Source: Chitinophagales bacterium
Lineage (GTDB): Bacteria; Bacteroidota; Bacteroidia; Chitinophagales; Chitinophagaceae
Assembly: GCA_038257235.1 (NCBI GenBank)
Contig: JBBSJN010000001.1
Span: forward strand, 1-49,691
Reading direction: 5' to 3'
Length of the DNA stretch: 49,691 bases
This document shows positions 2,626-48,541 of the stretch, one piece after another. Made by a program: the position numbers and the translations under genes. Under the pieces are notes generated by a model. That model saw nothing but the letters and a program-made list of their open reading frames with translations, was not told the origin of the DNA and searched no databases. Every line of letters starts with the position of its first letter. Within the stretch, counting starts at the first letter, position 1.

Positions 2626-2826
2626 GTGGCAGGTCTTCTGGCTTACTTCATCAGTTTTACCTTCCCATCCATTTTTTAAAAGGACAGTGGTATGAAGAAA
2701 ACTGATTTTTCCTCCCCCTGTCTGCCAACAGGCAGGCTTCTGGGGGCGGGGAGCTTACAGCTACGGGGATAGCGTCAGATTTTGACTGACTTCCCTTTTA
2801 ATTCCGGTTATTATGCCGGAAACCAA
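2626..2826 (-). ncRNA. Cobalamin riboswitch
   Basis: Minus strand: GGTT-hairpin-AAAAGGGAAGTCAGTCAAAATCTGACGCTATCCCCGTAGCTGTAAG...ACCACTG...GGGAAGG...AGCCAGAAGACCTGCC (B12 box); boundaries approximate. Confidence 0.92.
2717..2736 (+). repeat. Family A mini-palindrome (20 nt) within a host hairpin (2711-2753) inside the riboswitch
   Basis: CCTGTCTGCCAACAGGCAGG; removal leaves CCTCCCCTTCTGGGGGCGGGGAG. Confidence 0.9.
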
Positions 2827-2833
2827 ATCGCTG

Positions 2834-2841
2834 CAAATGTA
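2834..2841 (-). promoter_or_regulatory. Bacteroidota -7 promoter element for the riboswitch-btuB transcript
   Basis: TACATTTG on the minus strand (TAnnTTTG consensus) just 5' of the riboswitch. Confidence 0.7.
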
Positions 2842-3115
2842 GGGAGAGGATATATCTTTTCAGAAATAAATATTTAAATCTGAAATTTTATTCTTTGGAA
2901 TAAACTTTGCAGTATTCATACGGTCAGTCTAAAATCAGGGTTTTATACAGCAATTCTAAAATTTCCTGAATTATTTAACATAGTGGGTAATAATCAAAAT
3001 TAAATTCAGCCGTTTTTTATTTAATCCCGATAATTTATTTTTTCTCGTTTCCAATAACGGCCTGCTTTTATTGTAATAAACAGAGAATGATTCTTTTCTT
3101 TTTGAAACAAAAAAT

Positions 3116-3874
3116 ATGATTATAATAATAAAAAGAAAAATAGTTGCCGTTTTTATTGTTTTTGTTCTGGTGAATGGTAATTATGTCAATGCTCAGCTTG
3201 TGCTTCCACGATTTGAAATAGGAGCTGGCATCAGCAGCACTATTTATCAGGGAGATTTAACACCGAGTAGTTTTGGATCTTATAAAACCATGAAAGCAGG
3301 ATTTCAGTTACATGGAAGCCTTATTTTAAGTCCTTCTTTTTTGGCAAGAACAAACCTGGCTATTGGAGGACTACGGGGCGATGATGCAGCCTACGATAAT
3401 CCTGCATTCAGAAAGCAGCGGAACTTTACTTTCAAATCACCGGTAATCGAATTGTCGGAGCTAGTAGTTTGGAATCCTTTAAGAACAAATTATAAGAACA
3501 TTGGTTTTTCTCCTTATCTGATGGCAGGTGTCGGTATTAGTTTCTTAAACATAAAAAGCGATGCCAGTAATTTTAATCCAGACTATTTTGCTGAAAGTGC
3601 AGAGATATTGCAAAATATAGCAGATGATCAGGAACATGGTACTCCCAATATTATTCCTGTAGTGCCGGTGGGTGCTGGTGTACGGTATGGATTTTCTCCT
3701 ACTCTTGCCGTTTATGCAGAATCAGCCTACAGGCTAATGTTCACCGATTACCTTGATGGTTTTAGTAAGTCCACGAATCCTGATCAAAACGATCACTATC
3801 AGACAATCTCCGTTGGTGTTATATTCAGGCCGGGTAGTAAAGGAAAACTGGCTTGTCCTGCGGTAAGTTATTAA
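3116..3874 (+). CDS. Outer-membrane beta-barrel protein (DUF6089-like)
   Basis: Signal peptide, YQGDL near the N-terminus, YRLMFTDYLDGFS and alternating beta strands. Confidence 0.65.
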   Translation: MIIIIKRKIVAVFIVFVLVNGNYVNAQLVLPRFEIGAGISSTIYQGDLTPSSFGSYKTMKAGFQLHGSLILSPSFLARTNLAIGGLRGDDAAYDNPAFRKQRNFTFKSPVIELSELVVWNPLRTNYKNIGFSPYLMAGVGISFLNIKSDASNFNPDYFAESAEILQNIADDQEHGTPNIIPVVPVGAGVRYGFSPTLAVYAESAYRLMFTDYLDGFSKSTNPDQNDHYQTISVGVIFRPGSKGKLACPAVSY

Positions 3875-3879
3875 TCGGA

Positions 3880-5988
3880 TTATTTAGTTGTTGATTTAAT
3901 CCATTGAAAAGAAATTCCCACATAATAATTTCTTGGCGGAGCAGCATTGTAAAAGCGGTTGGCAGCGGCATTGATATCGTTACCTAAGCTATAGGTTTCA
4001 TTCAACAGGTTATCAACTCCTGCATAAAAATTAAATTTGTATTTGCGCTGCAATGTTTTTTTCCATCCTGCTCTGCAGCCGAGCAGATAATATGGTTCTG
4101 CTGATGCAGTGTTTGCATCATTCAGAAAAATTTTTGAAGCCGAGTAGTAAGTAATATTTGAATAGATACCGTTCTTTAGTTGAACATCAGCTAAGGCTGA
4201 TAATATAGTAGCCGGAACGGATGGAACCGTTTTGCCGGAAAAATCATTAATGCCTTTTATAAAACTGCCGTATCGGAAATGGTTGTAAGTATGTGCAATT
4301 GTTATAGCCAAATAATCTAACAATGAAACGGAGGAAGCCTGGTGTGTATAATGAATCTGTGATTCAATCCCTTTTTGCTTCACATCTCCCGCATTCACAA
4401 AAAAATCAGCACCTGAAAGATCCCTTCGCTGTACCAGTGCATTATTCAGTTTGAAATGGAATCCGGTTACTTCAACATCAAACCTGTGTTTCCATCTTCC
4501 TAAACTATAGTTAAGTCCAAGTTCATAATTCCAGCCATATTCGGCTTCAAGATCTGTGCTGATAACACCTGTTGATGGCAATAACTCACCAACTGTAGGT
4601 GGAGAAAAGCCTCTTGATACAGTTGCTTTCAAGGCAAAATCATTTGCAAATAATTTTTTTAATGAAATCCGTGGAGCCAATTCATTCTTATACCTGCGGG
4701 TTTGTTTTAATACCGGATATTGATTCAGTCTGCTAAAATTTACTTTTGTTTTATTCAGACTGATGCCGGTATTGATAAACCAATTTTTATTAAGACTTAT
4801 ATCTCCCTGCACAAAAAAATTATAAGTAGTATAATCAATATCATCGTTTGTTTGAAGGGTGTCAGGGTTGCCATTCTTGTTTTTTGAAACCTGTGTATTG
4901 AAATATCCTTGTTGAAATTCGCTGCCGGCTACCAATTGCAATTCATTGGCATTTTCATCTTTCTTTTTATAAGTGAAAAAAGTACGTCCGCCAAAACCGG
5001 GTTCATTCCTTCTTTCATAATTACGAATGGCCGGATTTTTTATTTGTGAAAAAGCACCGTATAAAGTCGTTGAATTTTTGAACGAATTAGTGATGTGATA
5101 AACGTTTGTAAATCCTGCTGTAATATTTTTCTGATAAATGGCTGCTTTTGCGTTTACTGCCGAAGGGAAAGCACCTGCGGCTGGCCTCGCTGCTTTTGGA
5201 TCAGCAGTAAACTCGGCCAATGTTAATGCGCCGGGAGTTTCATAAAATAAGTCGGTAAATAAAACAGCTGCTGATAGTTGCTGTTTGTCTGATAGTTTTA
5301 GTTGCGATTGCCAGGAAAAATTATCTCTCCGCATTTTAGTTTGTAGTCTATAGCCATCAGTTTCATTGTGGGCATAGGTAATCTGATTTTTATTCTCCTG
5401 CCCGACAACGTCATTCAGGCGGGCTTTTTTGCCAAATGCAACAGAAGTAAAGATGTTTTGCAGATTGTAGCTGCCTGTAACATATTCAAGACTTGCTCCG
5501 GGTTTCCAGGTATCGAAATTATTGACGAGGATTAAACCGCCGGTACCGGCTCCGTACATACTTCCTGCTGGTCCTTTAAAAATTTCGATGGAAGAAAAAT
5601 TATTCCATGCCAGTTGGTTAAAATAAGTATTGCCGCCCGGATCCGTTAATGGAATATTGTTCCAATAAACTTTTACGTTTCTTACGCCAAATGGGGAACG
5701 GAGAGAACTGCCTCTTATATTAATACGATAGCTACCGGGGCTTCTCTCTTCCATTCTTACACCGGCTATTGTATTAAATCCATTTACCAATGATGTTTTG
5801 TTATTCCGGTCACCATTATTGAATTCTATGATTTTTACCGTAGCAGTAGAATTCCTTATGCTCATGTTTTGCTCAAAAGCTTTTATAGTTACCTCGTCAA
5901 GAATTTTCGTAGAATCATTTATTGTTTCCTGGCTATAGCTTATAGAAATAATAAGAGAAAAGAAAACAAAAAGTATAATTTTTTTCAT
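3880..5988 (-). CDS. TonB-dependent receptor (YncD-like)
   Basis: LDEVTIKA TonB box; MEERSPGSYRINIRGSSLRSPFGVRNVK plug; YNAAPPRNYYVG C-terminus. Confidence 0.85.
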   Translation of the reverse strand: MKKIILFVFFSLIISISYSQETINDSTKILDEVTIKAFEQNMSIRNSTATVKIIEFNNGDRNNKTSLVNGFNTIAGVRMEERSPGSYRINIRGSSLRSPFGVRNVKVYWNNIPLTDPGGNTYFNQLAWNNFSSIEIFKGPAGSMYGAGTGGLILVNNFDTWKPGASLEYVTGSYNLQNIFTSVAFGKKARLNDVVGQENKNQITYAHNETDGYRLQTKMRRDNFSWQSQLKLSDKQQLSAAVLFTDLFYETPGALTLAEFTADPKAARPAAGAFPSAVNAKAAIYQKNITAGFTNVYHITNSFKNSTTLYGAFSQIKNPAIRNYERRNEPGFGGRTFFTYKKKDENANELQLVAGSEFQQGYFNTQVSKNKNGNPDTLQTNDDIDYTTYNFFVQGDISLNKNWFINTGISLNKTKVNFSRLNQYPVLKQTRRYKNELAPRISLKKLFANDFALKATVSRGFSPPTVGELLPSTGVISTDLEAEYGWNYELGLNYSLGRWKHRFDVEVTGFHFKLNNALVQRRDLSGADFFVNAGDVKQKGIESQIHYTHQASSVSLLDYLAITIAHTYNHFRYGSFIKGINDFSGKTVPSVPATILSALADVQLKNGIYSNITYYSASKIFLNDANTASAEPYYLLGCRAGWKKTLQRKYKFNFYAGVDNLLNETYSLGNDINAAANRFYNAAPPRNYYVGISFQWIKSTTK
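5397..5423 (-). repeat. Family B mini-palindrome (27 nt), in frame within the TonB-dependent receptor
   Basis: Minus strand CCCGCCTGAATGACGTTGTCGGGCAGG, 19/27 identical to the 35740-35766 copy. Confidence 0.75.
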
Positions 5989-6044
5989 GGAAAATGGAAT
6001 TAGATGGCGGTAAAATTAGGGTGTTTTCTCTGTATCTTCAAGCC

Positions 6045-7370
6045 ATGATTGCAAAGAACAAGTTGGGTCTCTTTTCCCTTACAATGATCGTTATAGGACT
6101 CGTAATTGGTACTGGTATTTTCCGTACTTCGAAAGATGCAGCGCAGGCAGCAGCTACACCCACCATCTTCTTTGCGGCTTGGGTTGTTGCTGGCCTTGTT
6201 GCCATTTGCGGAGCATTAACCTATGCTGAGATTGGTAGCCGCTATCCTGTTACAGGTGGCTATTACAAAATATTTTCTTATGCCTATCATCCCTCATTGG
6301 CATTTGGTATCAATGCAATTATTCTGATTTCAAATGCAGCATCTTTATCTGGTGTTGCTTTAATTGGCAGCGAATATATTTCTCCTTTACTTTTTGAAGC
6401 AGCCAATGTGGAAAAGTGGAAGCCATTTGTAGCCATGTTTGCCATTATTCTTTTTTATGGCGTTAATCTACTGGGGCTAAGAATGAGTTCGCAGACACAA
6501 AATGTGCTGATGGTTATTAAAATCGCAATGTTGTTGGTGATCATCGCTGCTTTATTTTTTCCTGAAGTGCATAGCATTGCACCTGTTGTTGTTGATGAAA
6601 GTAAAACCTCAGCTGCAGCTTTATTGCTTTCTTTTGGCGTAGCGTTGAAAGCCACTTCATTTACGTATGGTGGTTATCAGCAAACCATCAATTTTGGTGA
6701 AGAAGTGGTGAATCCGCAAAAGAATATTCCCAAAGGAATTTTTACCGGTATCATCATTATTATCGGTCTTTACTTATTAGTAAGTTATGCGTATGTAAAA
6801 GTGATTGGGTTTAATGAACTTAAAGAAACATCGGGTATAGCTTCTGTGGTTGCCGAAAAAATGTTTGGCACTGCGGGAAAGTATGCTTCTTCTATTTTAT
6901 TATTCCTGGCGGTGCTGGCTTATGTAAATGTTTTATTGCTCAGCAATCCAAGAGTTATGTATGCCATGAGTACTGACGGTATTTTACCAAAGATTTTTCA
7001 AAAGAAAGATAAAAAGAAAGATGTAATGACAGTAAGCCTAACAGTTTTTGCTGCCATGTGTGTGGTTGTTTTGTTTTTTGCAGACAAGTTTGAAAAGATT
7101 CTGAGTTTTACCATTTTCCTTGATTCTATTGGAATGGCCACTTCCGCTGCTACTATTTTTGTACTTCGCAAAAAAACAGCACATTTAAATGGAACGGGCA
7201 TCTATTCTATGAAACTATACCCGCTGCTGCCAATATTATTTATCATAGCTTACATATTTGTGGGAACAATGATTGCCATAAATGAACCTCAATTGGCATT
7301 AACAAGTATCAGTGTGCTGGCAGGGTTTATTGCTTTGTATTTTGTAATACGTAACTTTAAGGTGAAATGA
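6045..7370 (+). CDS. APC family amino acid permease
   Basis: LGLFSLTMIVIGLVIGTGIF, ALTYAEIGSRYPVTGGYY, about 12 TM helices; start revised to MIAKNK. Confidence 0.88.
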   Translation: MIAKNKLGLFSLTMIVIGLVIGTGIFRTSKDAAQAAATPTIFFAAWVVAGLVAICGALTYAEIGSRYPVTGGYYKIFSYAYHPSLAFGINAIILISNAASLSGVALIGSEYISPLLFEAANVEKWKPFVAMFAIILFYGVNLLGLRMSSQTQNVLMVIKIAMLLVIIAALFFPEVHSIAPVVVDESKTSAAALLLSFGVALKATSFTYGGYQQTINFGEEVVNPQKNIPKGIFTGIIIIIGLYLLVSYAYVKVIGFNELKETSGIASVVAEKMFGTAGKYASSILLFLAVLAYVNVLLLSNPRVMYAMSTDGILPKIFQKKDKKKDVMTVSLTVFAAMCVVVLFFADKFEKILSFTIFLDSIGMATSAATIFVLRKKTAHLNGTGIYSMKLYPLLPILFIIAYIFVGTMIAINEPQLALTSISVLAGFIALYFVIRNFKVK

Positions 7371-7903
7371 GCGGAGTTGTAAAAATATTGCCACATTATA
7401 CTTACGATGATTATGTTCATTGGGAAGGTAAATGGGAGCTTATTGATGGGGTTCCTTATGCAATGAGCCCGGCACCGGTGCCTAAGCACCAAACGCTGGC
7501 AGGTAACATACATGCAGAGTTTAGGATGAAATTAAAAAATTGCAAAAAATGTAAAGTTTATCAGCCCATTGATTACAAGGTGGAAGATGATACAATTTTT
7601 CAACCCGATATGCTGATTGTGTGCGGAGAGATTTCAAAAAAATATTTAGATTTTCCTCCGGCATTAGTTGTTGAAATTTTATCGCCTGCTACTGCGGCCA
7701 AAGACAGGTTTACCAAATTTCCTGTTTATCAAGCTAAAGGAATACCTTATTATATAATAGTTGATCCTGATCTTGAGGAAGTAGAAGTATATGAGCTTAT
7801 AAAAGAACAATATAAAATGACGGCAAGGGGGAAGGATATTCAGCATTTGTTTACTATTGACGATTGCATGGCTGATATTGATTTTAAAGAAATCTGGGAT
7901 TAG
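7367..7903 (+). CDS. Uma2 (DUF820) family PD-(D/E)XK endonuclease-like protein
   Basis: ELIDG..MSPAP..HQ, QPD, VVEILSP.T...D...K...Y...GI..Y.IVDP; ATGA overlap with the permease stop. Confidence 0.88.
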   Translation: MSGVVKILPHYTYDDYVHWEGKWELIDGVPYAMSPAPVPKHQTLAGNIHAEFRMKLKNCKKCKVYQPIDYKVEDDTIFQPDMLIVCGEISKKYLDFPPALVVEILSPATAAKDRFTKFPVYQAKGIPYYIIVDPDLEEVEVYELIKEQYKMTARGKDIQHLFTIDDCMADIDFKEIWD

Positions 7904-8015
7904 TTATTCTAATATTCATTATAAGCTACAATTTACAAAAGAGCCACACCGTCCATTACTCCCACTTATAAAAAATCATCAATCAGGCAGCTCAATTCAA
8001 TTATTTTTGCTGAAT

Positions 8016-9461
8016 ATGAAACTGGGTACATTATTATTTACATTATTGGTAATCAATAGTTCAATTACGGCGCAGGAAACACCTGCGGTTGTTGAAAAAT
8101 GGGATCTTCAAAAATGCGTGGAATATGCCATGCAGAATAATATCTCTGTTCGTCAGGCTGATCTGCAAATCAGGTTTGCAGAGCTTGACCTTTATCAGAG
8201 TATACAATCGCAATATCCCGGGTTGAATTTTAGCAGTAATCTTAGCTACAGTTCAGGACGTAATCAGGATCCAACTTCTTTTAGTTTAATAACAGCCGGT
8301 TATTTAAATAATGGCTACTCATTGCAAACTGGAGTTGATGTATTTAACTGGTTTACAAAAAGGAATACAATTGCAATGAATGACCTTACCATGAAAGCAA
8401 GGCAAGAAGGACTTGAAAAAGCAAAGAATGATGTTGCGTTGAATGTAGCCGTAGCTTATTTACAAGCTTTACTTGCAAAGGAGCAAATTACATTGGCAAA
8501 GTCAAGAGTAGAACAGACCAAAGCACAATTAGAAAGTACCAGAAAACAGGTTGATGCGGGGAAGCTTCCTGAATTGAATGCGGTAAATTTAGAATCGGTT
8601 TTAGCCAGTGATAGTTCTGCATTGATTAGTGCACAGATTACTGCCAGTCAGGCTTTATTGCAAATGAAAGCATTGTTGAATCTGGATGCGGCAACAGCGT
8701 TTGATATAGTTACGCCGCCAGTTGATTTGATTCCCATTGAATCTCTTGGGGATTTACAACCGAATGCAGTATATCAGCTGGCAATAAATAGTTTACCCCA
8801 GCAAAAAGTTGATATCCTAAATGTGATGGCTGCAAAAAAAGGGGTGGAAGTTTCCAGAGGCTCAATGTATCCTACATTTTCATTGTTCGGAAGTTTGGGT
8901 ACTACTTTTAACAGCAGGGCATCTGAAATAAAATCCAGCACCAAAATAAATGCGCCAGTAGGTACTGTTTCTGTTAGCGGAACACCTTATCAGGTATTTC
9001 CATTATCTCCATTTGACTTGTATTCATATGGAAATGTGAGTTATTTTGATCAATTTACTAGAAACTTCAGACAATCTGTTGGCTTGTCGCTAAGCGTTCC
9101 GATTTTTAATGGCAGCAGTTTACGTACACAATGGAATCGTTCAAAACTACAGCTAAGGCAGACCGAATTACAGAAAGAGCAAAATAGTTTTACCTTAAAA
9201 CAAGATATTTATAAAGCATATAATGATGCTGTGGCTGCGTTACAGTCATTCAATGCAAATAAAAAAACGGTTGAGTTTTCTGCCAAGGCATATGATTTTG
9301 CATCAAAGCGATATGAATTGGGCCTGCTTTCAACGTATGATTTAATTACTTCTCAAAACACATTGCAACAGGCAAAGATTCAACTTTTATATTCACAATA
9401 CGATTATGTGTTTAAAATGAAGTTGCTTGAATTTTATAAAGGCCAGGGTTTGAAACTTTAA
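8016..9461 (+). CDS. TolC family outer-membrane efflux protein
   Basis: WDLQKCVEYAMQNNISV, LSLSVPIFNG, RYELGL; start revised to MKLGTLL. Confidence 0.88.
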   Translation: MKLGTLLFTLLVINSSITAQETPAVVEKWDLQKCVEYAMQNNISVRQADLQIRFAELDLYQSIQSQYPGLNFSSNLSYSSGRNQDPTSFSLITAGYLNNGYSLQTGVDVFNWFTKRNTIAMNDLTMKARQEGLEKAKNDVALNVAVAYLQALLAKEQITLAKSRVEQTKAQLESTRKQVDAGKLPELNAVNLESVLASDSSALISAQITASQALLQMKALLNLDAATAFDIVTPPVDLIPIESLGDLQPNAVYQLAINSLPQQKVDILNVMAAKKGVEVSRGSMYPTFSLFGSLGTTFNSRASEIKSSTKINAPVGTVSVSGTPYQVFPLSPFDLYSYGNVSYFDQFTRNFRQSVGLSLSVPIFNGSSLRTQWNRSKLQLRQTELQKEQNSFTLKQDIYKAYNDAVAALQSFNANKKTVEFSAKAYDFASKRYELGLLSTYDLITSQNTLQQAKIQLLYSQYDYVFKMKLLEFYKGQGLKL

Positions 9462-9506
9462 TGTATTCTCACATTTCCACATCTTCTAATTTTCTAATTT
9501 GCGTTT

Positions 9507-35739: not shown

Positions 35740-35766
35740 CCCGCCCGGCCAAGCCGTTCGGACGGG
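35740..35766 (-). repeat. Family B mini-palindrome (27 nt) in host CCTCCGAAG|GAGGGACTT (35731-35775)
   Basis: Minus strand CCCGTCCGAACGGCTTGGCCGGGCGGG; removal restores the hairpin CCTCC-GAA-GGAGG. Confidence 0.85.
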
Positions 35767-36422: not shown

Positions 36423-36470
36423 AAAACAAACTGCTTTAGAAAATTAAAAATAAAGTAATGAATATGAGTC

Positions 36471-36516
36471 CTAAGTTCCCCCTGTCTGCCGACAGCCAGG
36501 CTTTAGGGGACTGGGG
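36471..36516 (+). repeat. Host REP-like element filled with a family A copy (36481-36500)
   Basis: CTAAGTTCCC[CCTGTCTGCCGACAGCCAGG]CTTTAGGGGACTGGGG. Confidence 0.9.
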
Positions 36517-38516: not shown

Positions 38517-38566
38517 CTAGCCCCTGTCCCCTAAAGCCTGCCTGTCGGCAGACAGGGGGAACTTAG
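38517..38566 (-). repeat. Host REP-like element filled with a family A copy (38537-38556)
   Basis: Minus strand CTAAGTTCCC[CCTGTCTGCCGACAGGCAGG]CTTTAGGGGACAGGGGCTAG. Confidence 0.92.
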
Positions 38567-38653
38567 GTTTGGTCAACTCTCCAATTTTTATATTCGCTTA
38601 AAGATTTTTTTTATTTGGTTCCCAACACCTGTTTTACATAGGATCGTCTCTTG

Positions 38654-38679
38654 CCCGTCCGAACGGTTGGCCGGGCGGA
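38654..38679 (+). repeat. Family B mini-palindrome (26 nt)
   Basis: CCCGTCCGAACGGTTGGCCGGGCGGA, one deletion and one substitution relative to the 35740-35766 copy. Confidence 0.85.
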
Positions 38680-38843
38680 CGTCGCACATTTCAGGGTTCT
38701 GTTCGTTGCTCAGCTTTTATTTTCACATTGGTAATTTCCCAATGGAATCTAAGCCTTATCAAAGTAGATTAGACTTTTGAAATCCGAGCATCTCAATTCC
38801 TTTTCTTTATAACAAAACTCCAAGAGATGAATGAATCATCGAT

Positions 38844-38873
38844 CTAAGTTCCCCTTTAGGGGACAGGGGCTAG
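38844..38873 (+). repeat. Empty host REP-like element
   Basis: CTAAGTTCCCCTTTAGGGGACAGGGGCTAG, identical to 38517-38566 minus the 20-nt insert. Confidence 0.92.
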
Positions 38874-39923
38874 GTTGGGGTTAATCTTCCTCGTCCTTTC
38901 CTTCATCAATGCAATAGCTTCTTCCTTTGAATTAAAGATTGCTCCATTGATGTTGACTAAGTTTTCTGCCAGTTTATCGTAGCGTTTTGTCAACAGCCAT
39001 GTAAATATGTGTAGATAGTGTATGCCATCGAAAACGATTGCTTTATTAGCTGCAAATTCATCTTTTCGTTTTAAGAATTCACCGGGCATTTCGGTGTAGT
39101 GCATTCCCGGGCGAAGATGATGGATGATATGATAACCATCATTCCAGCATTTTTTATTGTAAACGGTGTTGATGCAATTGATGGAACTTGTATATAAGTT
39201 TTCCGGATCTTTTGCATCAATAAAAGAATGTTGTGTCCAGTTGCCTAGCATCATCACCAGCCTTGCAAATACCAAGGGAATAATAAATATGACTAGTGTT
39301 GCTTTTAGATTTACAAAACACATTGCAATGCAAAATGCCAGATAGACATATTCGCCGGCAGTAAGCCGCTGTCCTAATTTTTTTCTTTTTTTACTAAATA
39401 GATACCTGATTGTATTAATTACGCCAACAAAAATGAATTTGAAAAAATAGGTAAGAAATCCTCTCAAACTATCCCGCTGATAAGGCATAGTGCTGCTGGT
39501 ATCGTCAAGCATATTATTTTCAATATGGTGCATACCCATGTGATGGCTGAAATAACCTTCCGGTGCATGACCAAATAATGGACAGATAATCCAGGAAGTG
39601 TATGTAAAGAAAGGTTTTTGCCAAGGTGCTTTCAATGTTTTACGATGGCAAAAACAATGAAACATTAATCCGAAACTTCCTTTAAAGTAAAGTTGTGATA
39701 AATAAAAGTATGGAACAGCCAATGCCCACCACCACCAACCGGTAAGCAGCGGAGTGTACAACAAAATAGCAACTGGTAAAATAATCAGATGAATAGTGGT
39801 TAATAAATAAATAAAAGGAAGATCCCTTTTATCAGTCATAATGCGTAACCATAATTTATCGTAAAATGAAAATTTTTCCTTTGGAGTGTAAACAGGATCA
39901 GTAAGGGTGTGTAAAGACTTCAT
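38856..39923 (-). CDS. Membrane fatty acid desaturase family protein
   Basis: His boxes HCFCH, HHMGMHH, HIIHH with TM segments. Confidence 0.85.
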   Translation of the reverse strand: MKSLHTLTDPVYTPKEKFSFYDKLWLRIMTDKRDLPFIYLLTTIHLIILPVAILLYTPLLTGWWWWALAVPYFYLSQLYFKGSFGLMFHCFCHRKTLKAPWQKPFFTYTSWIICPLFGHAPEGYFSHHMGMHHIENNMLDDTSSTMPYQRDSLRGFLTYFFKFIFVGVINTIRYLFSKKRKKLGQRLTAGEYVYLAFCIAMCFVNLKATLVIFIIPLVFARLVMMLGNWTQHSFIDAKDPENLYTSSINCINTVYNKKCWNDGYHIIHHLRPGMHYTEMPGEFLKRKDEFAANKAIVFDGIHYLHIFTWLLTKRYDKLAENLVNINGAIFNSKEEAIALMKERTRKINPNLAPVP

Positions 39924-40023: not shown

Positions 40024-41055
40024 CTATTTCGGCTTGTATTTGGCTTGAGTAATAATTGCAACAGCATCAGTTTGCATAATTTCTTCTGGCGTCAGATTCG
40101 GGTTCTTCTCCGCAAATTTTTTAATGAATTGCCAGCCGATCCACTGTCCGATATTTCCGGGAGAATAATCTGGCGGAAACCCTTGTGTAAAAGGGCTTTC
40201 GCCAATATAAACCTGCAAAACAGAGGGGTTTAGCGATTGCAAGTCTTCATTTTTTACAATATAAGTCCATATCATGCCTTCGTTGTCTTTGCACCAGTCT
40301 AATTGTTGTTGAGTATAGCCGATCTTTATGGAGTCAGGTGTTGTGGGAAGAAACTTATCCAGCAAATACCATTGTTTTCCTTTTTCCACCATTTGTTCGA
40401 TCAATGGTTTGCCGCTGCTTTTATCGGGAAACATATCCGAGACAACCAATTGTATCGCATCAGCAATAATATATTCTTTACTGAAACGGCGACTCCGGTA
40501 TCTGGGTGCTACACTTTCTATAAAAAAAGGGTCGTTGTAAACAGAAAAGTCTTTTCCCAGATAAAATTGCAGACTTATGCCTAATAGTCCGGGACGAATA
40601 AAATCAGGAGTAGGTCCATTATCCGATTGAGCCAGTGCATCCACTGGTCCGGCAATAGTTGCAATTGTAGGAACCGGGTATTTCGGGAAATAATATTTTA
40701 CATATTGAAATGCCTTTTTAAAATCTTTCTCCAAACCGTCAGTAGTTTTAAAAACTGTATTCACAGTGTCATATAAATCATTACTCAGGCTGATAAAATT
40801 TTTAACACCTGCAATTGTTTTTGCACTATCCAGTCCCAACACATATTGGAGAAAGATGGGAGTAACAACCGGATATTTTGCATTTAGTTGATTAAGGTAG
40901 GGTAATACATTATTGGTATCAATTGCAAAAAAATCCCTGTCAAACCGTTCCAGGTTTATATCAACATTGATATTGGAAACATCAGGAGCATTTTTGTTGC
41001 TTTTGCAGGAAAATAGCAACAGGCCAATTGAGAAAACCAGTATGAAATTTTTCAT
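40024..41055 (-). CDS. gldB: Gliding motility lipoprotein GldB-like
   Basis: Lipobox LFSC, ERFDRDFF, LIEQMV..GK..YL, GYT.QQL.WC..NE..IW, PG.IG.WIGWQ; divergent from nadE; start revised to MKNFILV. Confidence 0.85.
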   Translation of the reverse strand: MKNFILVFSIGLLLFSCKSNKNAPDVSNINVDINLERFDRDFFAIDTNNVLPYLNQLNAKYPVVTPIFLQYVLGLDSAKTIAGVKNFISLSNDLYDTVNTVFKTTDGLEKDFKKAFQYVKYYFPKYPVPTIATIAGPVDALAQSDNGPTPDFIRPGLLGISLQFYLGKDFSVYNDPFFIESVAPRYRSRRFSKEYIIADAIQLVVSDMFPDKSSGKPLIEQMVEKGKQWYLLDKFLPTTPDSIKIGYTQQQLDWCKDNEGMIWTYIVKNEDLQSLNPSVLQVYIGESPFTQGFPPDYSPGNIGQWIGWQFIKKFAEKNPNLTPEEIMQTDAVAIITQAKYKPK

Positions 41056-41259
41056 AGTTCTTATAAACGTAGCTGTATTAAAAATGTTGTTTGCCAATGT
41101 TACGAGAAATAGGCGATAAGCTATTTCGAGTGTTACAGTGGTCAATGCCGATATCAAAGATATTTAGACCAATCAGACAAAGAGAGTTGATCTAATCTAT
41201 AAATTTAATCGGCATGACTGCTAAATTAAGCTAATCCAACATTTCTGTAGATTTGCATT

Positions 41260-42942: not shown

Positions 42943-42944
42943 AA

Positions 42945-43397
42945 TTAATGAATATAAGTTGCTGTTACCAATATTGATGTGGGCGAAGGCGGAATAAATA
43001 CATCCTGAGAAACTACTAATGTAGTCTCGCTTAAGCTAACTATAGTAAAAGTTCCTGAGCCTCCAGGGAACAGGCCGATAGACATTACAAGTTGTGTTTC
43101 ATTATTTTGTAATGTCCAGGTAAAATTTCCAGCAGTTGTTGGGTTACAAATATTAGAGCCCTCAGTAACATTGCCACTACCATTAGCTTGAAAAGTAACT
43201 GCATCATCTTTTATGCAAGCTATTTGCGGATTGTTTGAAATATCAGTTCCCCCGGCAGTAGCGGAAGAAAATTTCCAACTGCTTCTCGATAAATTTTCTG
43301 ATTTGGTGGGAGCATTTCCTTCTTCTTTTGTACAGGATGATAATCCAAGAAATAATACAAGAAGACCCGTAAAAACAACTTTATTTTCTTTTTTCAT
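42945..43397 (-). CDS. Lipocalin-like lipoprotein
   Basis: Lipobox LSSC, W near the N-terminus, C..DD...F...G, C, W pattern. Confidence 0.7.
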   Translation of the reverse strand: MKKENKVVFTGLLVLFLGLSSCTKEEGNAPTKSENLSRSSWKFSSATAGGTDISNNPQIACIKDDAVTFQANGSGNVTEGSNICNPTTAGNFTWTLQNNETQLVMSIGLFPGGSGTFTIVSLSETTLVVSQDVFIPPSPTSILVTATYIH

Positions 43398-43551
43398 AGC
43401 AAAAATGGTTATTGCCCCAAAATAAGTAATCTTTTCTGTTCAAAAAAGATAAAATCACTTAATATCATAGCGAAATTCATGCCGTTCATAATTACGGCAA
43501 ATTATTTGCTTAATGCACGTTCGTATTTTGTGACACATTAATTCAATCAGC

Positions 43552-44550
43552 ATGTTAAAGACAGCAGAAGATATCAGGTTATTAAATGAAAAGATCGGCC
43601 ATGCAGGCCAATTTACCGATAAACTAAGAGAAGAGATCGGCCATGTCATTATTGGTCAGAGCCATATGCTCGACAGGTTATTGATTGGGCTTTTAAGTAA
43701 TGGACATGTATTATTAGAAGGAGTGCCGGGACTTGCAAAAACGCTGACAATAAAATCCCTTGCACAAGCTATACATGCACAATTCAGCCGTATCCAATTT
43801 ACTCCTGATTTGTTACCTGCAGATGTTATCGGAACATTGATCTATAATCAGCAGAAAAGTGAATTTATAGTTCGCAAGGGACCCATCTTTGCCAATTTTA
43901 TTCTGGCAGATGAAATAAACAGGGCGCCGGCCAAAGTACAAAGTGCATTGCTGGAGGCTATGCAGGAGCGGCAAGTAACGATTGGCGACAGCACTTATAA
44001 ACTGGATGAACCATTTTTAGTATTGGCAACTCAGAATCCATTGGAACAGGAAGGGACTTATCCGCTACCTGAAGCACAGGTTGACCGCTTCATCATGAAA
44101 GTGATTGTTGATTATCCTAAAATGGTGGAGGAGCAGATCATTCTCCGGAAAAGTGTCCAGGGAGAATTTCCGAAAATAAATCAAGTCGTTTCTATTACTG
44201 AAGTGATAAATGCAAGAAATCTCACAAAGCAGATTTATATGGATGAGAAAATAGAGCAATACATTCTTGATATTGTCTTTGCAACAAGAAAACCGGGAGA
44301 TTATAAATTAGAAAAACTTCAACCATTAATATCGTACGGTGCTTCTCCACGGGGAAGTATCAACTTGGGCCTCGCAGCTAAATCTCAGGCATTTTTAAAT
44401 AAAAGAGGTTTTGTAATTCCGGAAGATGTGAGAAGTATTTGTAAAGATGTGCTGCGTCATCGTATCGGCCTGACTTATGAAGCAGAAGCGGAAAATGTGA
44501 AAGTAGAAGATGTGATTGAAGATGTGTTAAGACAGATAAATGTTCCTTAA
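43552..44550 (+). CDS. MoxR family AAA ATPase
   Basis: HVLLEGVPGLAKT, RIQFTPDLLPAD, DEINRAPAKVQSALLEAMQE, YPLPEAQVDRF. Confidence 0.95.
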   Translation: MLKTAEDIRLLNEKIGHAGQFTDKLREEIGHVIIGQSHMLDRLLIGLLSNGHVLLEGVPGLAKTLTIKSLAQAIHAQFSRIQFTPDLLPADVIGTLIYNQQKSEFIVRKGPIFANFILADEINRAPAKVQSALLEAMQERQVTIGDSTYKLDEPFLVLATQNPLEQEGTYPLPEAQVDRFIMKVIVDYPKMVEEQIILRKSVQGEFPKINQVVSITEVINARNLTKQIYMDEKIEQYILDIVFATRKPGDYKLEKLQPLISYGASPRGSINLGLAAKSQAFLNKRGFVIPEDVRSICKDVLRHRIGLTYEAEAENVKVEDVIEDVLRQINVP

Positions 44551-44552
44551 TA

Positions 44553-44580
44553 GCCTCTAAGTTCCTCCAAGGGGGACTTA
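44553..44580. repeat. Empty host-type REP variant after moxR
   Basis: GCCTCTAAGTTCCTCCAAGGGGGACTTA, shares the TAAGTTCC/GGGACTT arms of the other hosts. Confidence 0.6.
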
Positions 44581-44617
44581 AGATTCTAAAAAAATAAATT
44601 TTCATACTAATGGCTGA

Positions 44618-45496
44618 ATGTTAACTACAGCAGAAATAATAAAAAAGGTTCGGGAGCTTGAAATTAAAAGCAAGAAACTTACCAGTGATCTTTTTACTGG
44701 TGAATATCATAGTGCTTTTAAGGGAAAAGGGATGTCGTTCAAAGAAGTGAGGGAATATGCTGCGGGAGATGATATACGTTTTATTGACTGGAATGTATCG
44801 GCAAGATTTGGTCATCCTTATAGCAAAATATTTGAAGAAGAAAGGGAGTTGACAGTGATGCTGTTAGTTGATATCAGTTCAAGTTCATTATTCGGAACAG
44901 AAGCTGCCAGAAAGAAAGATATAATTACAGAAATTGCAGCTGTTCTTAGTTTTTCAGCGGTTAATAATGCAGATAAGATAGGTGTGATTTTTTACAGCGA
45001 CCAGGTTGAAGCATTTATACCACCGAAGAAAGGAAAACAACATGCTTTATATATAGTACGGGAATTGTTGAGCAAAGAACCCAAAGGAAAAGGAACAGCG
45101 GTAAGTAAAGCACTCCGGTATTTTAATAATTCAACCAAGCAAAAAAGTATTGCTTTTGTGCTGAGTGATTTTATTGACGCCAATTATGAAGATGCATTAA
45201 GAATTGCCGGAAAGAAACATGATGTGATAGGTGTCAAAATTTATGACAAAATGGATAAGCAGTTACCTGATGCAGGATTACTTCAGGTAAAAGACGCAGA
45301 ATCCGGTGCCACAAAATGGGTGGACAGCAGTAATGCATTTGTAAGATATAGTTATGAGCAGGAGTTTTTCAGAATAACTGAATACAGCACACAAACTTTT
45401 AAAAAAGCAGGATGCGACCTGCTGCATGTGAAAACCGGTGAGGATTATGTAAGAGTGTTACAACGATTCTTTCTCAGCCGGAACAAACAAAAATGA
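44618..45496 (+). CDS. DUF58 domain protein
   Basis: GEY.SAFKG.GM.F.EVREY..GDDIR.IDWNVSAR, FEEERELT. Confidence 0.93.
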   Translation: MLTTAEIIKKVRELEIKSKKLTSDLFTGEYHSAFKGKGMSFKEVREYAAGDDIRFIDWNVSARFGHPYSKIFEEERELTVMLLVDISSSSLFGTEAARKKDIITEIAAVLSFSAVNNADKIGVIFYSDQVEAFIPPKKGKQHALYIVRELLSKEPKGKGTAVSKALRYFNNSTKQKSIAFVLSDFIDANYEDALRIAGKKHDVIGVKIYDKMDKQLPDAGLLQVKDAESGATKWVDSSNAFVRYSYEQEFFRITEYSTQTFKKAGCDLLHVKTGEDYVRVLQRFFLSRNKQK

Positions 45497-46371
45497 TTAC
45501 CAGGAAACAAATACTCTTTATATTCTCTGTTCTTTTCACAAATCTGGTGATAGCACAAGGCAATGCTTCTATTAAAGCATCTGTCAATAAGAATAAGATA
45601 CTTTTGGGTGAGCCATTGGAGCTAACGATAGAAACCTATTTGCCTTCAGCAAGTAAAATAAAATTTGAACAATTAGATACAATAGCTCATTTTGAATTTT
45701 TAGAAAAGTCTGGTATTGATAGTTCGGTAACTAATGATGGTATAAAGTTTATGGTGAAATATACAATCACCAGTTTTGATTCGGGTCATTGGGTGATGCC
45801 ATCATTTAGTTTATCAAAAGGAATTAAAACAGATACTATTCCAGTTGATGTTGTGTTTTCCGATTTTAATCCAGAGCAAGATTATCATGATATAAAAGAT
45901 ATAATTGAAATAGAAACCAACAAGGATGCTGTTCCCTGGTGGATTTATGTAGTCGGAGCAGTTTTGCTGGTTTTGATGATTATAGTTTTTGCCCGAAGAA
46001 AAAAGAAACCAGTGCCAGTCGTAAAAGAGAAAGCTATTGCAAATCCTTATAAAGAAGCAATGCAACAACTGGCGGCATTGCAAAAGAAGAATGTTGATGC
46101 TAAAGTATATTATGCTGAACTAATCAATATTTTTAGATTATACATTTTTAGAAAAAAAGGAATTCTTTCGTTACAAAAGACAACTGACGATCTTATACTG
46201 CAAGTAAAGGATGTGGTAAATGAAAAAGAGCATTTTGAAAAGTTATCTCAAGCTTTACGTTTGAGTGATTTTGTAAAGTTTGCAAAATATATTCCTGCTG
46301 AAGAGGAGAAAAGGACATCATGTTCAGATATTTTAAATTCAATAAAGCTGATTGAAGGATCAGGTGCTTAA
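45493..46371 (+). CDS. Bat-locus membrane-anchored protein (BatD-like N-terminus)
   Basis: Signal peptide, ITSFDSG, DIK.I, TM, QKTTD, DFVKFAK; between DUF58 and batA. Confidence 0.7.
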   Translation: MITRKQILFIFSVLFTNLVIAQGNASIKASVNKNKILLGEPLELTIETYLPSASKIKFEQLDTIAHFEFLEKSGIDSSVTNDGIKFMVKYTITSFDSGHWVMPSFSLSKGIKTDTIPVDVVFSDFNPEQDYHDIKDIIEIETNKDAVPWWIYVVGAVLLVLMIIVFARRKKKPVPVVKEKAIANPYKEAMQQLAALQKKNVDAKVYYAELINIFRLYIFRKKGILSLQKTTDDLILQVKDVVNEKEHFEKLSQALRLSDFVKFAKYIPAEEEKRTSCSDILNSIKLIEGSGA

Positions 46372-46418
46372 GCCCCTCCTGTCTGCCGACAGGCAGGCCT
46401 CGGAGGTGTTGGGGAGGC
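46372..46418 (+). repeat. Host REP-like element filled with a family A copy (46378-46397)
   Basis: GCCCCT[CCTGTCTGCCGACAGGCAGG]CCTCGGAGGTGTTGGGGAGG. Confidence 0.9.
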
Positions 46419-46422
46419 TGTT

Positions 46423-47436
46423 ATGTTATACGACTGGATCAAAAATATGCATTTTGTTTACCCGATATTCTTCGGGTTGTTTGCATTATTACCATTGCTG
46501 ATATGGTGGTATGTAAAAAAGAATGACCAGCAAAAAGCAACAATAACTGTTTCCACGGCACATGCATTTGCTGTTACTTCCTGGAAGAACAGGGTTCGTC
46601 ATCTTCCTTTTGTATTTCGATTGCTGACATTAAGTTGTTTAATAATTGCCTTAGCCCAACCGCAAAAAAGAAATGAAGAGCAACGGTCAGAGGGAGAAGG
46701 AATTGATATTGTGTTGTGCATGGATGTAAGTGGTAGTATGGGTTCGCAGGATATTCCACCATCGAGAATGGAAGTGGCAAAGGAAGTAGCGGAAGAATTT
46801 GTCCGCAGCCGGCCGGTTGATAGAATCGGGCTCGTTATTTTCTCCGGAGAAAGTTTTACGCAGTGTCCGATAACGAATGACAGAAATACACTGATTACAC
46901 AAATTCAAAAATTAGAAAGCAGAACCTTGCTGAAAGACGGCACCGTAATCGGTGAGGGATTGGCAACAGCGGTTGACAGGCTGGTACAAAGCAAATCGAA
47001 AAGCAAAGTCATTATTCTTATTACAGATGGAAAGGAAGATGCGCCGGATACAAGATTGATTGATCCGTTAACGGCATTGGAAATTGCAAAATCACAAGGA
47101 GTTAAAGTATATACGATTGGCATGGGGGCAATTCCATCAAACATAATTGAAGTAACAGGTAATAAACCCAAAAATCGCAATCCTGAGATTGGGTTTATTG
47201 ATGTGGAACTGCTGAAAAAAATTGCTGATGAAACAGGCGGTCAATACTTCCGGGCTAAGGATAAAGAAGCATTGAAAGAAACTTATAAGCAGATTGACAT
47301 TTTGGAAAAATCTAAAGTTGATATCATTTCTTTTAACCTTGTGGAAGAAAGGTTTATTCCTTTTGTACTGGTAGCTTTGGTTTTTCTCTTTCTGGAAATG
47401 CTTTTAAGGTTTACGGTTCTTAGAAAATTTCCTTGA
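46423..47436 (+). CDS. batA: BatA-type VWA domain protein
   Basis: N-terminal BatA TMs, ALA.P, DVSGSM MIDAS, DRIGLV.F.GE...QCP.T, TDG, IA..TGG.YFRA. Confidence 0.88.
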   Translation: MLYDWIKNMHFVYPIFFGLFALLPLLIWWYVKKNDQQKATITVSTAHAFAVTSWKNRVRHLPFVFRLLTLSCLIIALAQPQKRNEEQRSEGEGIDIVLCMDVSGSMGSQDIPPSRMEVAKEVAEEFVRSRPVDRIGLVIFSGESFTQCPITNDRNTLITQIQKLESRTLLKDGTVIGEGLATAVDRLVQSKSKSKVIILITDGKEDAPDTRLIDPLTALEIAKSQGVKVYTIGMGAIPSNIIEVTGNKPKNRNPEIGFIDVELLKKIADETGGQYFRAKDKEALKETYKQIDILEKSKVDIISFNLVEERFIPFVLVALVFLFLEMLLRFTVLRKFP

Positions 47437-47462
47437 TTTGAGTATGAGCTAATGAATAGATA

Positions 47463-47552
47463 TGAGCCACATAGGCAGATAGTGCACAGTAGGAATTCAC
47501 ACATAGAATTTGCTCTATGTGGTAGACTATGTTACTAATGTTATGTGGTTCA
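47463..47552. repeat. Imperfect palindrome of about 90 bp built from CATAG/CTATG units
   Basis: TGAGCCACATAG...CACATAG-N8-CTATGTG...TATGTGGTTCA. Confidence 0.6.
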
Positions 47553-47593
47553 ATACGGATATTGGAGAGTTGAAAACATTATCTTGCAAGCCA

Positions 47594-48541
47594 ATGAAAG
47601 CAACAGTTTATAAATCCACCGGAAGCTGGTATATTATTAAAGATGAGAACGACAAATTCTGGAATGCCCGGATGAAAGGGGTGATGAAGATTGATGATAT
47701 TACTTCTACCAATCCTGTGGCAGTCGGTGATGATGTGGAATTTGAAATAGAGAATGAACTGGATGGTACTGCCATGATTGATGAGATTCATCGACGTAAC
47801 AATTATATTAACCGGCAATCGCCACGCAATAAATACCAGCATCATATTGTAGCTGCCAATCTTGACCAGTCAATGCTGGTGGCAACGCTGAAAGAACCTA
47901 AAACTTCACAAGGGTTTATTGACCGTTTTCTGGTTGCTTCCGAAATGTATCATGTGAAACCATTTATTGTTTTAAATAAATCTGATTTATACAAAGCAAA
48001 AGAAATGCAAAAATATCAGGACTGGAAAGCAATGTATGAAGCAGTTGGTTACAAAGTATTTTTAGTAAGTGCTGAAAAAAAGGAGGGTGTTGAAGGGGTT
48101 TTGGAAATGCTGAAAAATAAAACAACACTCATCAGCGGACATAGTGGTGTAGGCAAATCATCTTTTTTGAATGTCATATTTCCTGATAAAATTTTAAAGA
48201 CCCAGGAAGTAAGTGGCTGGAGTGGCAAAGGGCAGCATACAACTACGTTTGCTGAAATGTATGATCTTCCCCTGCCTGCCGGACAGGCAGGTTTTGGAGG
48301 ACGCATTATTGATACACCTGGAATGAGGGAATTTGGCTTGGTGGATATTGACAAACAGGAAGTATCTCATTATTTTCCTGAAATGAGAGATAGATTAAAT
48401 AATTGCCAGTTCAATAATTGCCTCCATTTTAGTGAACCTGGCTGTGCTATTAAAGAAGCAACTGTTAATGGTGAAATACATGAAAACCGATATGTGAGTT
48501 ATGTGAATATTATGGAAAGTATTGAGCAAAGAAGTTATTAA
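47594..48541 (+). CDS. rsgA: Small ribosomal subunit-dependent GTPase RsgA (start revised to MKATVYKSTGSWY)
   Basis: VAVGD.V, AANLD, NKSD (G4), GHSGVGKSS (G1), G.HTTT, DTPG, CQFNNCLH..EPGC zinc finger. Confidence 0.96.
   Translation: MKATVYKSTGSWYIIKDENDKFWNARMKGVMKIDDITSTNPVAVGDDVEFEIENELDGTAMIDEIHRRNNYINRQSPRNKYQHHIVAANLDQSMLVATLKEPKTSQGFIDRFLVASEMYHVKPFIVLNKSDLYKAKEMQKYQDWKAMYEAVGYKVFLVSAEKKEGVEGVLEMLKNKTTLISGHSGVGKSSFLNVIFPDKILKTQEVSGWSGKGQHTTTFAEMYDLPLPAGQAGFGGRIIDTPGMREFGLVDIDKQEVSHYFPEMRDRLNNCQFNNCLHFSEPGCAIKEATVNGEIHENRYVSYVNIMESIEQRSY
48271..48291 (+). repeat. Family A mini-palindrome (21 nt), in frame in rsgA
   Basis: CCTGCCTGCCGGACAGGCAGG; removal gives MYDLPFGGRIIDTPG. Confidence 0.9.

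What the first reader, a model, noticed from the sequence alone, without database searches (positions are those of the whole stretch)
2717..48291. Ultra-short (20-27 nt) palindromic elements that insert into other REP-like repeats, a riboswitch and proteins
Seen: five family A copies (2717, 36481, 38537, 46378, 48271) and three family B copies (5397, 35740, 38654) in 50 kb. Excising a copy cleanly restores a host hairpin or a plausible reading frame in at least seven of eight cases, with no evident target duplication. The family A junctions share a pyrimidine context in one orientation (TCCC^CTT x3, CCCT^CCT, TTCC^TTT), 0-2 nt before the loop of a small C-run/G-run hairpin; the family B copy at 35740 fits too (CCTC^CTT). 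Non-coding copies are 20, 20, 20, 20, 26 and 27 nt, while both coding copies are multiples of 3 (21, 27). Known analogues are REP/REPINs mobilised by RAYT HUH transposases and Rickettsia palindromic elements inserted in frame in proteins, but those units are larger. Inference: a non-autonomous, target-selective micro-element parasitising other repeats and mobilised in trans. No mobiliser is encoded in this window.
Basis: partly seen in the sequence, partly recalled or inferred. Interest (0 to 1): 0.85.

Follow-up and report, generated by a model that had tools for sequence, protein, structure and literature searches.

The report
Tiny jumping palindromes with tRNA-parked nuclease
This bacterium carries about 200 copies of two 20-28-base hairpin sequences inserted cleanly into genes, a riboswitch and other repeats, and each type also sits beside its own tiny DNA-cutting-enzyme gene at tRNA genes, which likely spreads it, an arrangement I found in no paper.

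Summary
Real. All eight copies are at the stated coordinates. The 3.2-Mb Bacteroidota genome holds 202 copies; 9-14 are expected by chance. In the closest relative, 38 of 53 alignable sites are empty by exactly the element's length, with no target duplication. Copies nest in DUF559-end repeats and in each other. Frame selection is strong: 2 of 48 20-mers but 26 of 34 21-mers are coding. The likely mobiliser is a 78-aa stand-alone Slx1/UPF0213-like GIY-YIG gene at tRNA genes, with the palindrome in a loop of a duplicated tRNA fragment: 27 of 30 genus loci and 63 of 80 GTDB loci, versus 0 of 30 for Y1/HUH and 0 of 30 for DUF559. Family A and family B go with two different nuclease clades. Mobilisation is inferred from association only; no activity was tested. 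Nearest known systems are Ssn/SRM, REP/RAYT and Rickettsia palindromic elements; it fails or cannot be confirmed in each membership test. Nine literature searches found no description. This scan has already noted the same palindrome-nuclease-tRNA pairing on other genomes.

The parts
2717..2736 (+). Family A element, 20 nt, inside a C-run/G-run host hairpin within the cobalamin riboswitch
   Evidence: host hairpin without the element in G031
2611..2842 (-). Cobalamin riboswitch upstream of a TonB receptor gene; the element and its host repeat sit in the variable region
   Evidence: Rfam RF00174, 82.8 bits
5397..5423 (+). Family B (B2 type) element, 27 nt, in frame in the TonB receptor gene 3880-5988 (-); adds 9 residues
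   Evidence: net 27-nt gap in all five relatives aligned; frame open with and without it
35740..35766 (-). Family B (B1 type) element, 27 nt, in a CCTCCGAAGGAGG-type host hairpin between nadC and the SUI1 gene
   Evidence: exact 27-nt gap in G031
36481..36500 (+). Family A element, 20 nt, in the host repeat 36470-36516 at the 3' end of the isocitrate dehydrogenase gene
   Evidence: the whole host repeat is absent in the five relatives aligned
38537..38556 (-). Family A element, 20 nt, in the host repeat 38521-38567 downstream of apaG
   Evidence: host repeat without the element in G031, G016, G013
38654..38679 (+). Family B (B1 type) element, 26 nt, in a TTG^CGTCGCAC repeat
   Evidence: exact 26-nt gap in G031 and G013
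38843..38885 (.). Empty copy of the same host repeat that is filled at 36481 and 38537 (DUF559-end type); ends approximate
   Evidence: (I8); the same repeat type bounds DUF559 genes at C149, C130 and C176
46378..46397 (+). Family A element, 20 nt, in an AAGCCCCTCCTTCGGAGG-type host hairpin upstream of batA
   Evidence: empty host hairpin at the same place in G001
48271..48291 (+). Family A element, 21-nt variant, in frame in rsgA (47510-48541); adds 7 residues
   Evidence: absent in 28 of 29 relatives' loci, identical in G027; 21 nt left out in a contig of run X5

Best explanation
These are two families of 20-28-nt palindromic insertions, absent from relatives' orthologous sites and without target duplication, that are likely copied around the genome in trans by a cognate 78-80-aa GIY-YIG nuclease whose gene sits at a tRNA gene next to a master copy. 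Shown: the whole element is one 8-bp-armed hairpin (CCYGYCYG...CRGRCRGG). It inserts with exact boundaries, prefers family-specific motifs (B1 C^CNT, B2 ^GNT, family A weakly (A/C)^(T/C)T), and nests in tRNA-gene loops, DUF559-end repeats, CGTC-tagged repeats and other copies. Only net multiples of 3 persist in genes. Family A goes with one nuclease clade (mostly tRNA-Leu/Arg) and family B with a sister clade (mostly tRNA-Arg). Inferred: the Slx1-like nuclease recognises the hairpin in single-stranded DNA, cuts at the base of the stem and at a target site, and the ends are joined by strand transfer or ligation; this would give exact insertion with no duplication. Also inferred: the nuclease-tRNA-fragment cassette is the autonomous partner, using the tRNA promoter and rebuilding an intact tRNA beside itself.
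For: Mobility: 38 exact-length empty sites, 4 near, 3 shared, 8 unclear of 53 alignable in G031; 5 exact and 2 near of 30 G031 copies are empty in G000. Frame selection. Oriented logos hold in coding sites too: B1 -1C 85%, +1C 80%, +3T 85%. T at +3 on at least one strand at 169 of 201 sites versus 52% random. Linkage: element within 150 nt at 27 of 30 P0001-like genes, 0 of 30 Y1 and 0 of 30 DUF559 loci. Within 200 nt at 63 of 80 GTDB loci across Bacteroidota, Ignavibacteriota, Patescibacteria and others, 45 of 80 metagenome loci of the B clade, 16 of 29 family loci. Many of the misses hold degenerate or longer copies. Tree of 168 proteins: 74 of 76 A-labelled on one side, 31 of 32 B-labelled on the other. 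Genomes over 2.5 Mb: median B copies 13 with a B-clade gene (n=8) versus 1 without (n=87); an A-clade gene does not predict B copies (P=0.27). Other tRNA-parked GIY-YIG clades carry other inserts. Fold: UPF0213 and Slx1 are the best matches. Invariant Y5, Y16, G18, R26, H30, E62. Precedent: SsnA cuts ssDNA next to its own hairpin (PMC11893778).
Against: No activity was tested, and I know no GIY-YIG enzyme that joins DNA (recall). 6 of 13 genomes with 9 or more B copies had no B-clade gene found. G000's only assembled B-clade gene (C131) is broken by a frameshift and a stop. Genomes without a detected A-clade gene still have a median of 8 short copies. Only 1 of 40 viral-contig copies has the nuclease within 500 nt. 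No replication-strand bias was seen, though the skew proxy was weak. Coding target sites are not significantly more structured than random (P=0.16). Family B copies fold no better than their shuffles (z -0.6 to -1.2). The tree is a quick one on 78 columns, SH-aLRT 85, and the loci were sampled around two query proteins; related genomes are not independent.
Confidence: 0.5

Rival explanations
1. The cognate GIY-YIG only nicks the target. Host repair (template switching or gene conversion) then copies the hairpin in from another copy or from incoming DNA, as in homing.
For: All linkage data fit equally well. Known GIY-YIG enzymes hydrolyse DNA (PMC1564403 passages). G000 and G027 share the rsgA insertion with locally identical flanks, while the closer G031 is empty, which could be co-conversion.
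Against: Insertions at unrelated sites are exact to the base with no flanking homology (38 of 53). Ku was not found in G000, which is 90% complete. The rsgA identity peak is one 30-nt bin and could reflect target preference.
Confidence: 0.28
2. Another enzyme, such as an HUH/RAYT transposase, moves the elements, and they merely pile up in dead tRNA fragments next to the nuclease gene because these are safe, structured targets.
For: HUH enzymes insert without target duplication (recalled). G000 has 7 Y1 matches. Several B-rich genomes lack a detected B-clade gene. Fragments often hold 2-3 different inserts.
Against: 0 of 30 Y1 loci have an element within 150 nt. The insert type follows the nuclease clade across phyla. 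The link holds in genomes with only 6-16 copies. In G000, two other tRNA-parked GIY-YIG cassettes carry different inserts despite 202 A/B copies. The Y1 control used the 30 best PF01797 hits, so RAYT-like weak hits were under-sampled.
Confidence: 0.12
3. The palindromes are footprints: the joined ends left when a larger gene-bearing element is excised or internally deleted.
For: Longer forms (55-64 nt) with the same B ends and a variable interior occur next to B-clade genes.
Against: In 0 of 219 nuclease loci does the gene lie between a lone left arm and a lone right arm. Master copies beside the gene are whole palindromes.
Confidence: 0.06
4. They are host regulatory hairpins (terminators, RNA stabilisers) or assembly artefacts.
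For: Most 20-mers are intergenic.
Against: Lineage-specific presence, nesting inside other repeats, insertion into rsgA and a riboswitch, absence or near absence (0-5 copies) from 26 streamlined genomes, and filled alleles in public runs.
Confidence: 0.02

Closest known systems
Ssn nucleases with NTS/SRM hairpin repeats (Chenal et al. 2025, PMC11893778; read: abstract, Results part 1 of 4, sections 10, 12, 17)
   Same: Small single-domain GIY-YIG gene linked to its own dispersed hairpin repeat; enzyme-repeat pairs co-vary; the authors raise a mobile-element origin.
   Different: SRMs are about 30 nt with an unpaired CGTC-type 5' tag and flank the gene in clusters; NTS are rarely in genes (2%). 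Here the element is the bare hairpin, inserts exactly into genes and into other repeats, and the gene sits in a tRNA duplication. P0001 is 25-38% identical to the two GIY-YIG proteins of G000 that have CGTC-tagged flanks. Insertion was not shown for SRMs in the parts I read.
REP/REPIN with RAYT HUH transposases (Di Nocera et al. 2013, PMC3733652; read: passages)
   Same: 20-40-nt palindromes in high copy, some intragenic, thought to be mobilised in trans by an enzyme whose gene they accompany.
   Different: No GTAG or CGTC tag (1 of 202), no Y1 gene nearby (0 of 30), mostly single copies and not dimers, and the partner is a GIY-YIG protein.
Rickettsia palindromic elements (Minnick 2024, PMC10969869; read: passages)
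   Same: Palindromic insertions kept in frame in unrelated housekeeping genes.
   Different: RPEs are about 150 bp there; these add 7-10 codons, come in frame-keeping and frame-breaking lengths, and have a linked candidate mobiliser.
MITEs (PMC10969869; read: passages)
   Same: Non-autonomous, inverted ends, mobilised in trans.
   Different: MITEs are 50-500 bp with target duplications; these are 20-30 nt with none.
GIY-YIG homing endonucleases and prokaryotic Slx1-like/UPF0213 proteins (PMC1564403; read: passages)
   Same: Same fold; the gene sits in a conserved host gene whose target copy is interrupted.
   Different: No DNA-binding extension and no intron; the passages I read mention no link to tRNA-gene duplications or palindromes.

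Membership tests
REP/RAYT | GTAG (or CGTC) tag at one end of the palindrome | tested here: not met
   1 of 202 copies has either tag within 5 nt of an end
REP/RAYT | Y1/HUH (RAYT) gene flanked by the repeat | tested here: not met
   0 of 30 best PF01797 loci from 41 genomes. In G000, copies interrupt two weak Y1 hits (C108, C126) and lie in other repeats near two more
REP/RAYT | 20-40-nt palindrome in high copy number | tested here: met
   202 copies of 20-30 nt
Ssn/SRM | Single-domain GIY-YIG protein linked to a hairpin repeat | tested here: met
   PF01541; 27 of 30 and 63 of 80 loci
Ssn/SRM | Repeat matches the SRM consensus | tested here: inconclusive
   0 of 202 overlap an SRM match, but the pattern also missed the CGTC-tagged repeats at C48 and C239 meant as positive control
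Ssn/SRM | Protein in CDD cd10448 (Ssn clade) | not testable with these tools
   No CDD library. Best PDB matches are UPF0213 and Slx1; 25-38% identity to G000's two CGTC-flanked GIY-YIG proteins
Ssn/SRM | Sequence-specific cutting of single-stranded DNA | not testable with these tools
   needs a biochemical assay
MITE | Target-site duplication | tested here: not met
   gap equals element length at 38 of 53 alignable sites; 1-2 nt flank matches come from the C^C motif, present in empty alleles
MITE | 50-500 bp with terminal inverted repeats | tested here: not met
   inverted ends yes, but length 20-30 nt; rare 55-64-nt forms
Rickettsia palindromic elements | In-frame insertion in housekeeping genes | tested here: met
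   56 coding copies with length a multiple of 3
Rickettsia palindromic elements | About 150 bp; sequence relation to RPE families | tested here: not met
   size 20-30 nt; sequence not compared directly with RPE families
DUF559-bounded elements | Repeat forms the ends of the DUF559 gene | tested here: not met
   0 of 30 DUF559 loci have A or B within 150 nt; the DUF559-end repeats are the hosts that A and B invade

The most novel reading that the evidence does not exclude
A 78-residue GIY-YIG protein acts alone as a transposase for a 20-nt hairpin, cutting it out of single-stranded DNA and joining it into a new site without duplication. This would be a new transposition chemistry and about the smallest mobile element and mobiliser pair known. 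It would also be a large family of orthogonal enzyme-hairpin pairs, parked in tRNA genes across phyla, whose lengths evolve toward multiples of three as they colonise genes.
Probability: 0.35. Interest if true: 0.95.

Novelty: new variant of a known kind. Interest (0 to 1): 0.8.

Why it matters
It gives a testable candidate answer to how very short palindromic repeats without a RAYT transposase spread, and how in-frame palindromic inserts get into housekeeping proteins. Here at least 56 coding sites of one genome gained 7-10 residues this way. It also assigns a likely role to a widespread uncharacterised group of Slx1/UPF0213-like bacterial proteins. Both partners are tiny (78 aa, 20 nt), the target rules are mapped, and two orthogonal pairs (A and B) control for each other, so the test needs only oligonucleotides and two small proteins. 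If the enzyme joins as well as cuts, it would be a scarless micro-integrase. The inserts also explain recurring spurious peptides and broken annotations in these genomes.

Tried and rejected
Y1/HUH and DUF559 as mobilisers: 0 of 30 loci each. Joined-ends model: 0 of 219 loci. General pyrimidine target rule: 11 of 72. Hairpin targets in coding DNA: not significant. Replication-strand bias: none seen, but per-contig skew was not bimodal, so the test is weak; B1 orientation in genes (4 sense, 16 antisense) leans the same way as motif availability (37:63) and was not tested further. Ku not found in G000. The SRM pattern test lacked a working positive control. NCBIfam gave no family above cut-off for P0001. 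The Atlas look-up gave no answer. A profile-based locus search had no conserved seed, so single proteins were used. Sequencing runs: no RNA holder listed; only contigs could be laid, and no filled/empty polymorphism within a near-identical strain appeared in the rows shown. My first guess that the B-clade contig C131 adjoins the window was wrong: it matches only the gene and tRNA of the G031 locus. Pairs of copies in G069, G227 and G534 were not ends of a composite element, except where they belonged to tRNA cassettes. The careful tree did not finish; the quick tree is reported. No complex prediction was run. Literature searches with no description of this system.
Full report
Observation. The window comes from a 3.2-Mb, 37.6% GC genome in 382 contigs, 90% complete. 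GldB and PorP genes point to Bacteroidota, and the nearest titled relatives of its nuclease are Chitinophagaceae; that assignment is an inference. All eight copies are present as described. Both families fit one pattern, CCYGYCYG-loop-CRGRCRGG. It has 125 exact and 206 one-mismatch matches, against 0-1 and 9-14 in two Markov genomes. A non-overlapping set of 202 has length peaks at 20 (48), 21 (34), 27 (78) and 28 (15); about ten of these may be chance matches. G000 has the highest exact count (124) of 121 same-genus genomes; 103 have at least one. Family A occurs in 73 of 301 genomes drawn from the phylum.

They are insertions. I fetched 1.9 Mb of the closest relative, G031, about half its genome. 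Of 202 sites, 115 had a hit, 109 were aligned and 53 had both flanks at least 60% identical. Of these 53, 38 are empty by exactly the element's length, 4 within 3 nt, 3 shared (one looks like a chance coding match) and 8 unclear. In reverse, of 30 G031 copies, 5 are exactly and 2 nearly empty in G000, 4 shared, 4 unclear and 15 not alignable. A gap equal to the element means no target duplication. For A^T and ^G sites the boundaries are the hairpin ends; for C^C sites the register is ambiguous by one or two bases. In the window, seven of eight sites have an empty or near-empty ortholog; 36481 has none because its host repeat is missing. The rsgA copy is shared with G027 but not with the closer G031. 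That means repeated insertion, local transfer or exact loss; I could not tell which.

Frame selection. Sites were called coding if, after excision, they lay in an ORF of at least 120 codons; 80% of random positions pass this rule. Coding copies: 2 of 48 20-mers, 26 of 34 21-mers (P=3e-12), 26 of 78 27-mers and 2 of 23 26/28-mers. Overall 56 of 123 multiples of 3 versus 6 of 79 others. No in-frame copy adds a stop. Nine 20-mers lie in frames open only when filled. Several are spurious upstream extensions, but C6:28115 and C58:5059 have a net 21-nt gain against G031, so a flanking indel rescued the frame. The 21-mers are mostly 20-mers with one extra base near the loop. Beside nuclease genes, 0 of 72 pattern-matched copies in the GTDB set are 21 nt (one degenerate 21-mer was found by alignment), and B masters are mostly 28 nt, while dispersed B copies in G000 are mostly 27 nt. 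This suggests that dispersed copies themselves propagate and drift toward multiples of three (inference).

Targets. Non-coding empty sites fold better than random (P=1e-5); coding ones do not (P=0.16). The C-run/G-run host hairpins are the inverted repeats that bound DUF559 genes at C149, C130 and C176; one such motif is filled 17 times and empty 68 times. Copies also nest in each other: one B2 variant sits seven times at the same position of B1-type copies with differing interiors. In G180, family A sits in seven copies of a CGTC-tagged repeat.

Mobiliser. G000 has 6 GIY-YIG, 7 Y1 and 8 DUF559 matches. One 78-aa GIY-YIG gene (P0001, C293) lies directly before tRNA-Leu, preceded by a duplicated 5' tRNA fragment with a perfect family A copy in its D-loop, 38 nt upstream. 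Of the 30 best loci of this protein in the genus, 27 have an element within 150 nt, and the other three hold a truncated, cut-off or nested copy. The 30 best Y1 and 30 best DUF559 loci have none. In GTDB, 63 of the best 80 loci (of 393 confirmed) have one within 200 nt, all of A type, across Bacteroidota, Ignavibacteriota, Balneolota, Patescibacteria and others; 69 have a tRNA within 300 nt. A sister clade, sampled with L160 and L157, carries 25-30-nt B elements in tRNA-Arg fragments at G^GAT and C^GAT sites, matching the dispersed B motif: 45 of 80 and 16 of 29 loci have an element of either type. Many misses hold degenerate or 55-64-nt forms, and more distant clades hold unrelated inserts. 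In a quick tree of 168 distinct proteins, 74 of 76 A-labelled rows fall on one side and 31 of 32 B-labelled rows on the other (SH-aLRT 85; 51 shorter, stop-containing or duplicate rows of 219 were left out). Among 95 genomes over 2.5 Mb, B copies have a median of 13 with a B-clade gene and 1 without, and an A-clade gene does not predict B copies. Short copies have medians of 17 and 8 with and without an A-clade gene (numbers; kin are not independent). Against this, 6 of 13 B-rich genomes had no B-clade gene found, and G000's assembled B-clade gene (C131, next to a B master) is broken. In G031 an intact B-clade cassette at tRNA-Arg(CCG) lies 420-850 bp left of the position matching window base 1, and G000's assembly lacks that tRNA, so an intact gene may lie just outside the window. 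The model of P0001 (pLDDT 92) matches UPF0213 proteins and Slx1 best.

Mechanism. Shown: exact, duplication-free, motif-selective insertion, and a clade-specific link to a tRNA-parked nuclease. Inferred: the nuclease is the mobiliser (about 0.8). Exact ends at the base of a hairpin, a frequent T-G pair at stem position 5 that folds fully on one strand only in family A, targets in tRNA loops, and the Slx1 and Ssn precedents point to action on single-stranded DNA. I favour cutting at the stem base and target with direct rejoining (0.5) over nick-and-repair copying (0.28). Ku was not found, no strand bias was detectable, and no gene lies between split arms (0 of 219). How the cassette itself moves is open; tandem arrays occur.

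Known systems and novelty. It works like REP/RAYT and Ssn/SRM, a hairpin repeat with a dedicated small nuclease, and like RPEs in entering proteins in frame. It fails the REP, MITE and RPE tests, and Ssn membership could not be settled. Papers seen: PMC11893778 (abstract, Results part 1 of 4, sections 10, 12, 17), PMC3733652, PMC1564403 and PMC10969869 (passages). No supplements were read; those of PMC11893778 may bear on the clade. HUH insertion without duplication and the gene names atpG and ribD are recalled. Nine searches found no description; subscription journals are largely outside that library. This scan has noted the palindrome-nuclease-tRNA pairing several times on other genomes. Those notes are leads, not support; the counts above are my own.

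Verdict. A real, widespread family of mobile micro-palindromes with a strong but untested candidate mobiliser. New variant of a known kind; categorically new if the nuclease proves to join DNA. Interest 0.8.

Noticed in passing
G000 C20:10742-11062, C87:3422-3742, C244:1-270: DUF559 domains bounded by C-run/G-run repeats sit in frame inside long housekeeping ORFs (methionine synthase-, chorismate synthase- and CinA-like by recall); many genus relatives show DUF559 in frames of 400-1180 aa. It looks like a second mobile nuclease system, which A and B parasitise.
   Followed up: partly
G031:C8:30302-30737 (L118), left of the position matching window base 1: Intact B-clade nuclease cassette at tRNA-Arg(CCG) with four B-type inserts; G000's contig breaks in the adjacent gene and lacks this tRNA.
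   Followed up: partly
G000 C48:3230-3529 and C239:2390-2660: Two GIY-YIG genes flanked by clusters of CGTC-tagged hairpins, probably Ssn/SRM systems, though the published SRM pattern misses them.
   Followed up: partly
G000 C30:15600-16000 and C91:10230-10774: Two more tRNA-parked GIY-YIG genes (tRNA-Ser, tRNA-Ala) with other inserts in their tRNA copies; the CCCGA..TCGGG type has 76 pattern matches in the genome (no chance control) and may be a third micro-element family.
   Followed up: partly
G000 C6:28115-28134: A 20-nt copy in an ATP synthase gamma-like gene (name recalled) with a nearby compensating indel, net 21 nt against G031.
   Followed up: partly
G000 C222:4372-4425; L547; G088 C66:4319-4402: Two or three elements inserted head to tail at one site, suggesting that the junction stays a target after insertion.
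   Followed up: no
G139:C6:1174374-1177356 (L534); L549; L113: Tandem arrays of tRNA-nuclease units (347-bp period, nine GIY-YIG hits in G139) and of tRNA-Leu copies each carrying family A in the D-loop.
   Followed up: no
L118:13756-13775 (G031), matching about window 2590-2625: G031 has its own family A copy next to the 3' end of the same cobalamin riboswitch, at a site that is empty in G000.
   Followed up: no
G000 C215:3847, C253:3004, C334:507: IS200-like Y1 genes with their own imperfect hairpin repeats on both sides, unrelated to A and B.
   Followed up: no
L528, L529: A different GIY-YIG domain fused in frame to the start of a longer ORF of about 370 aa in two genus genomes.
   Followed up: no
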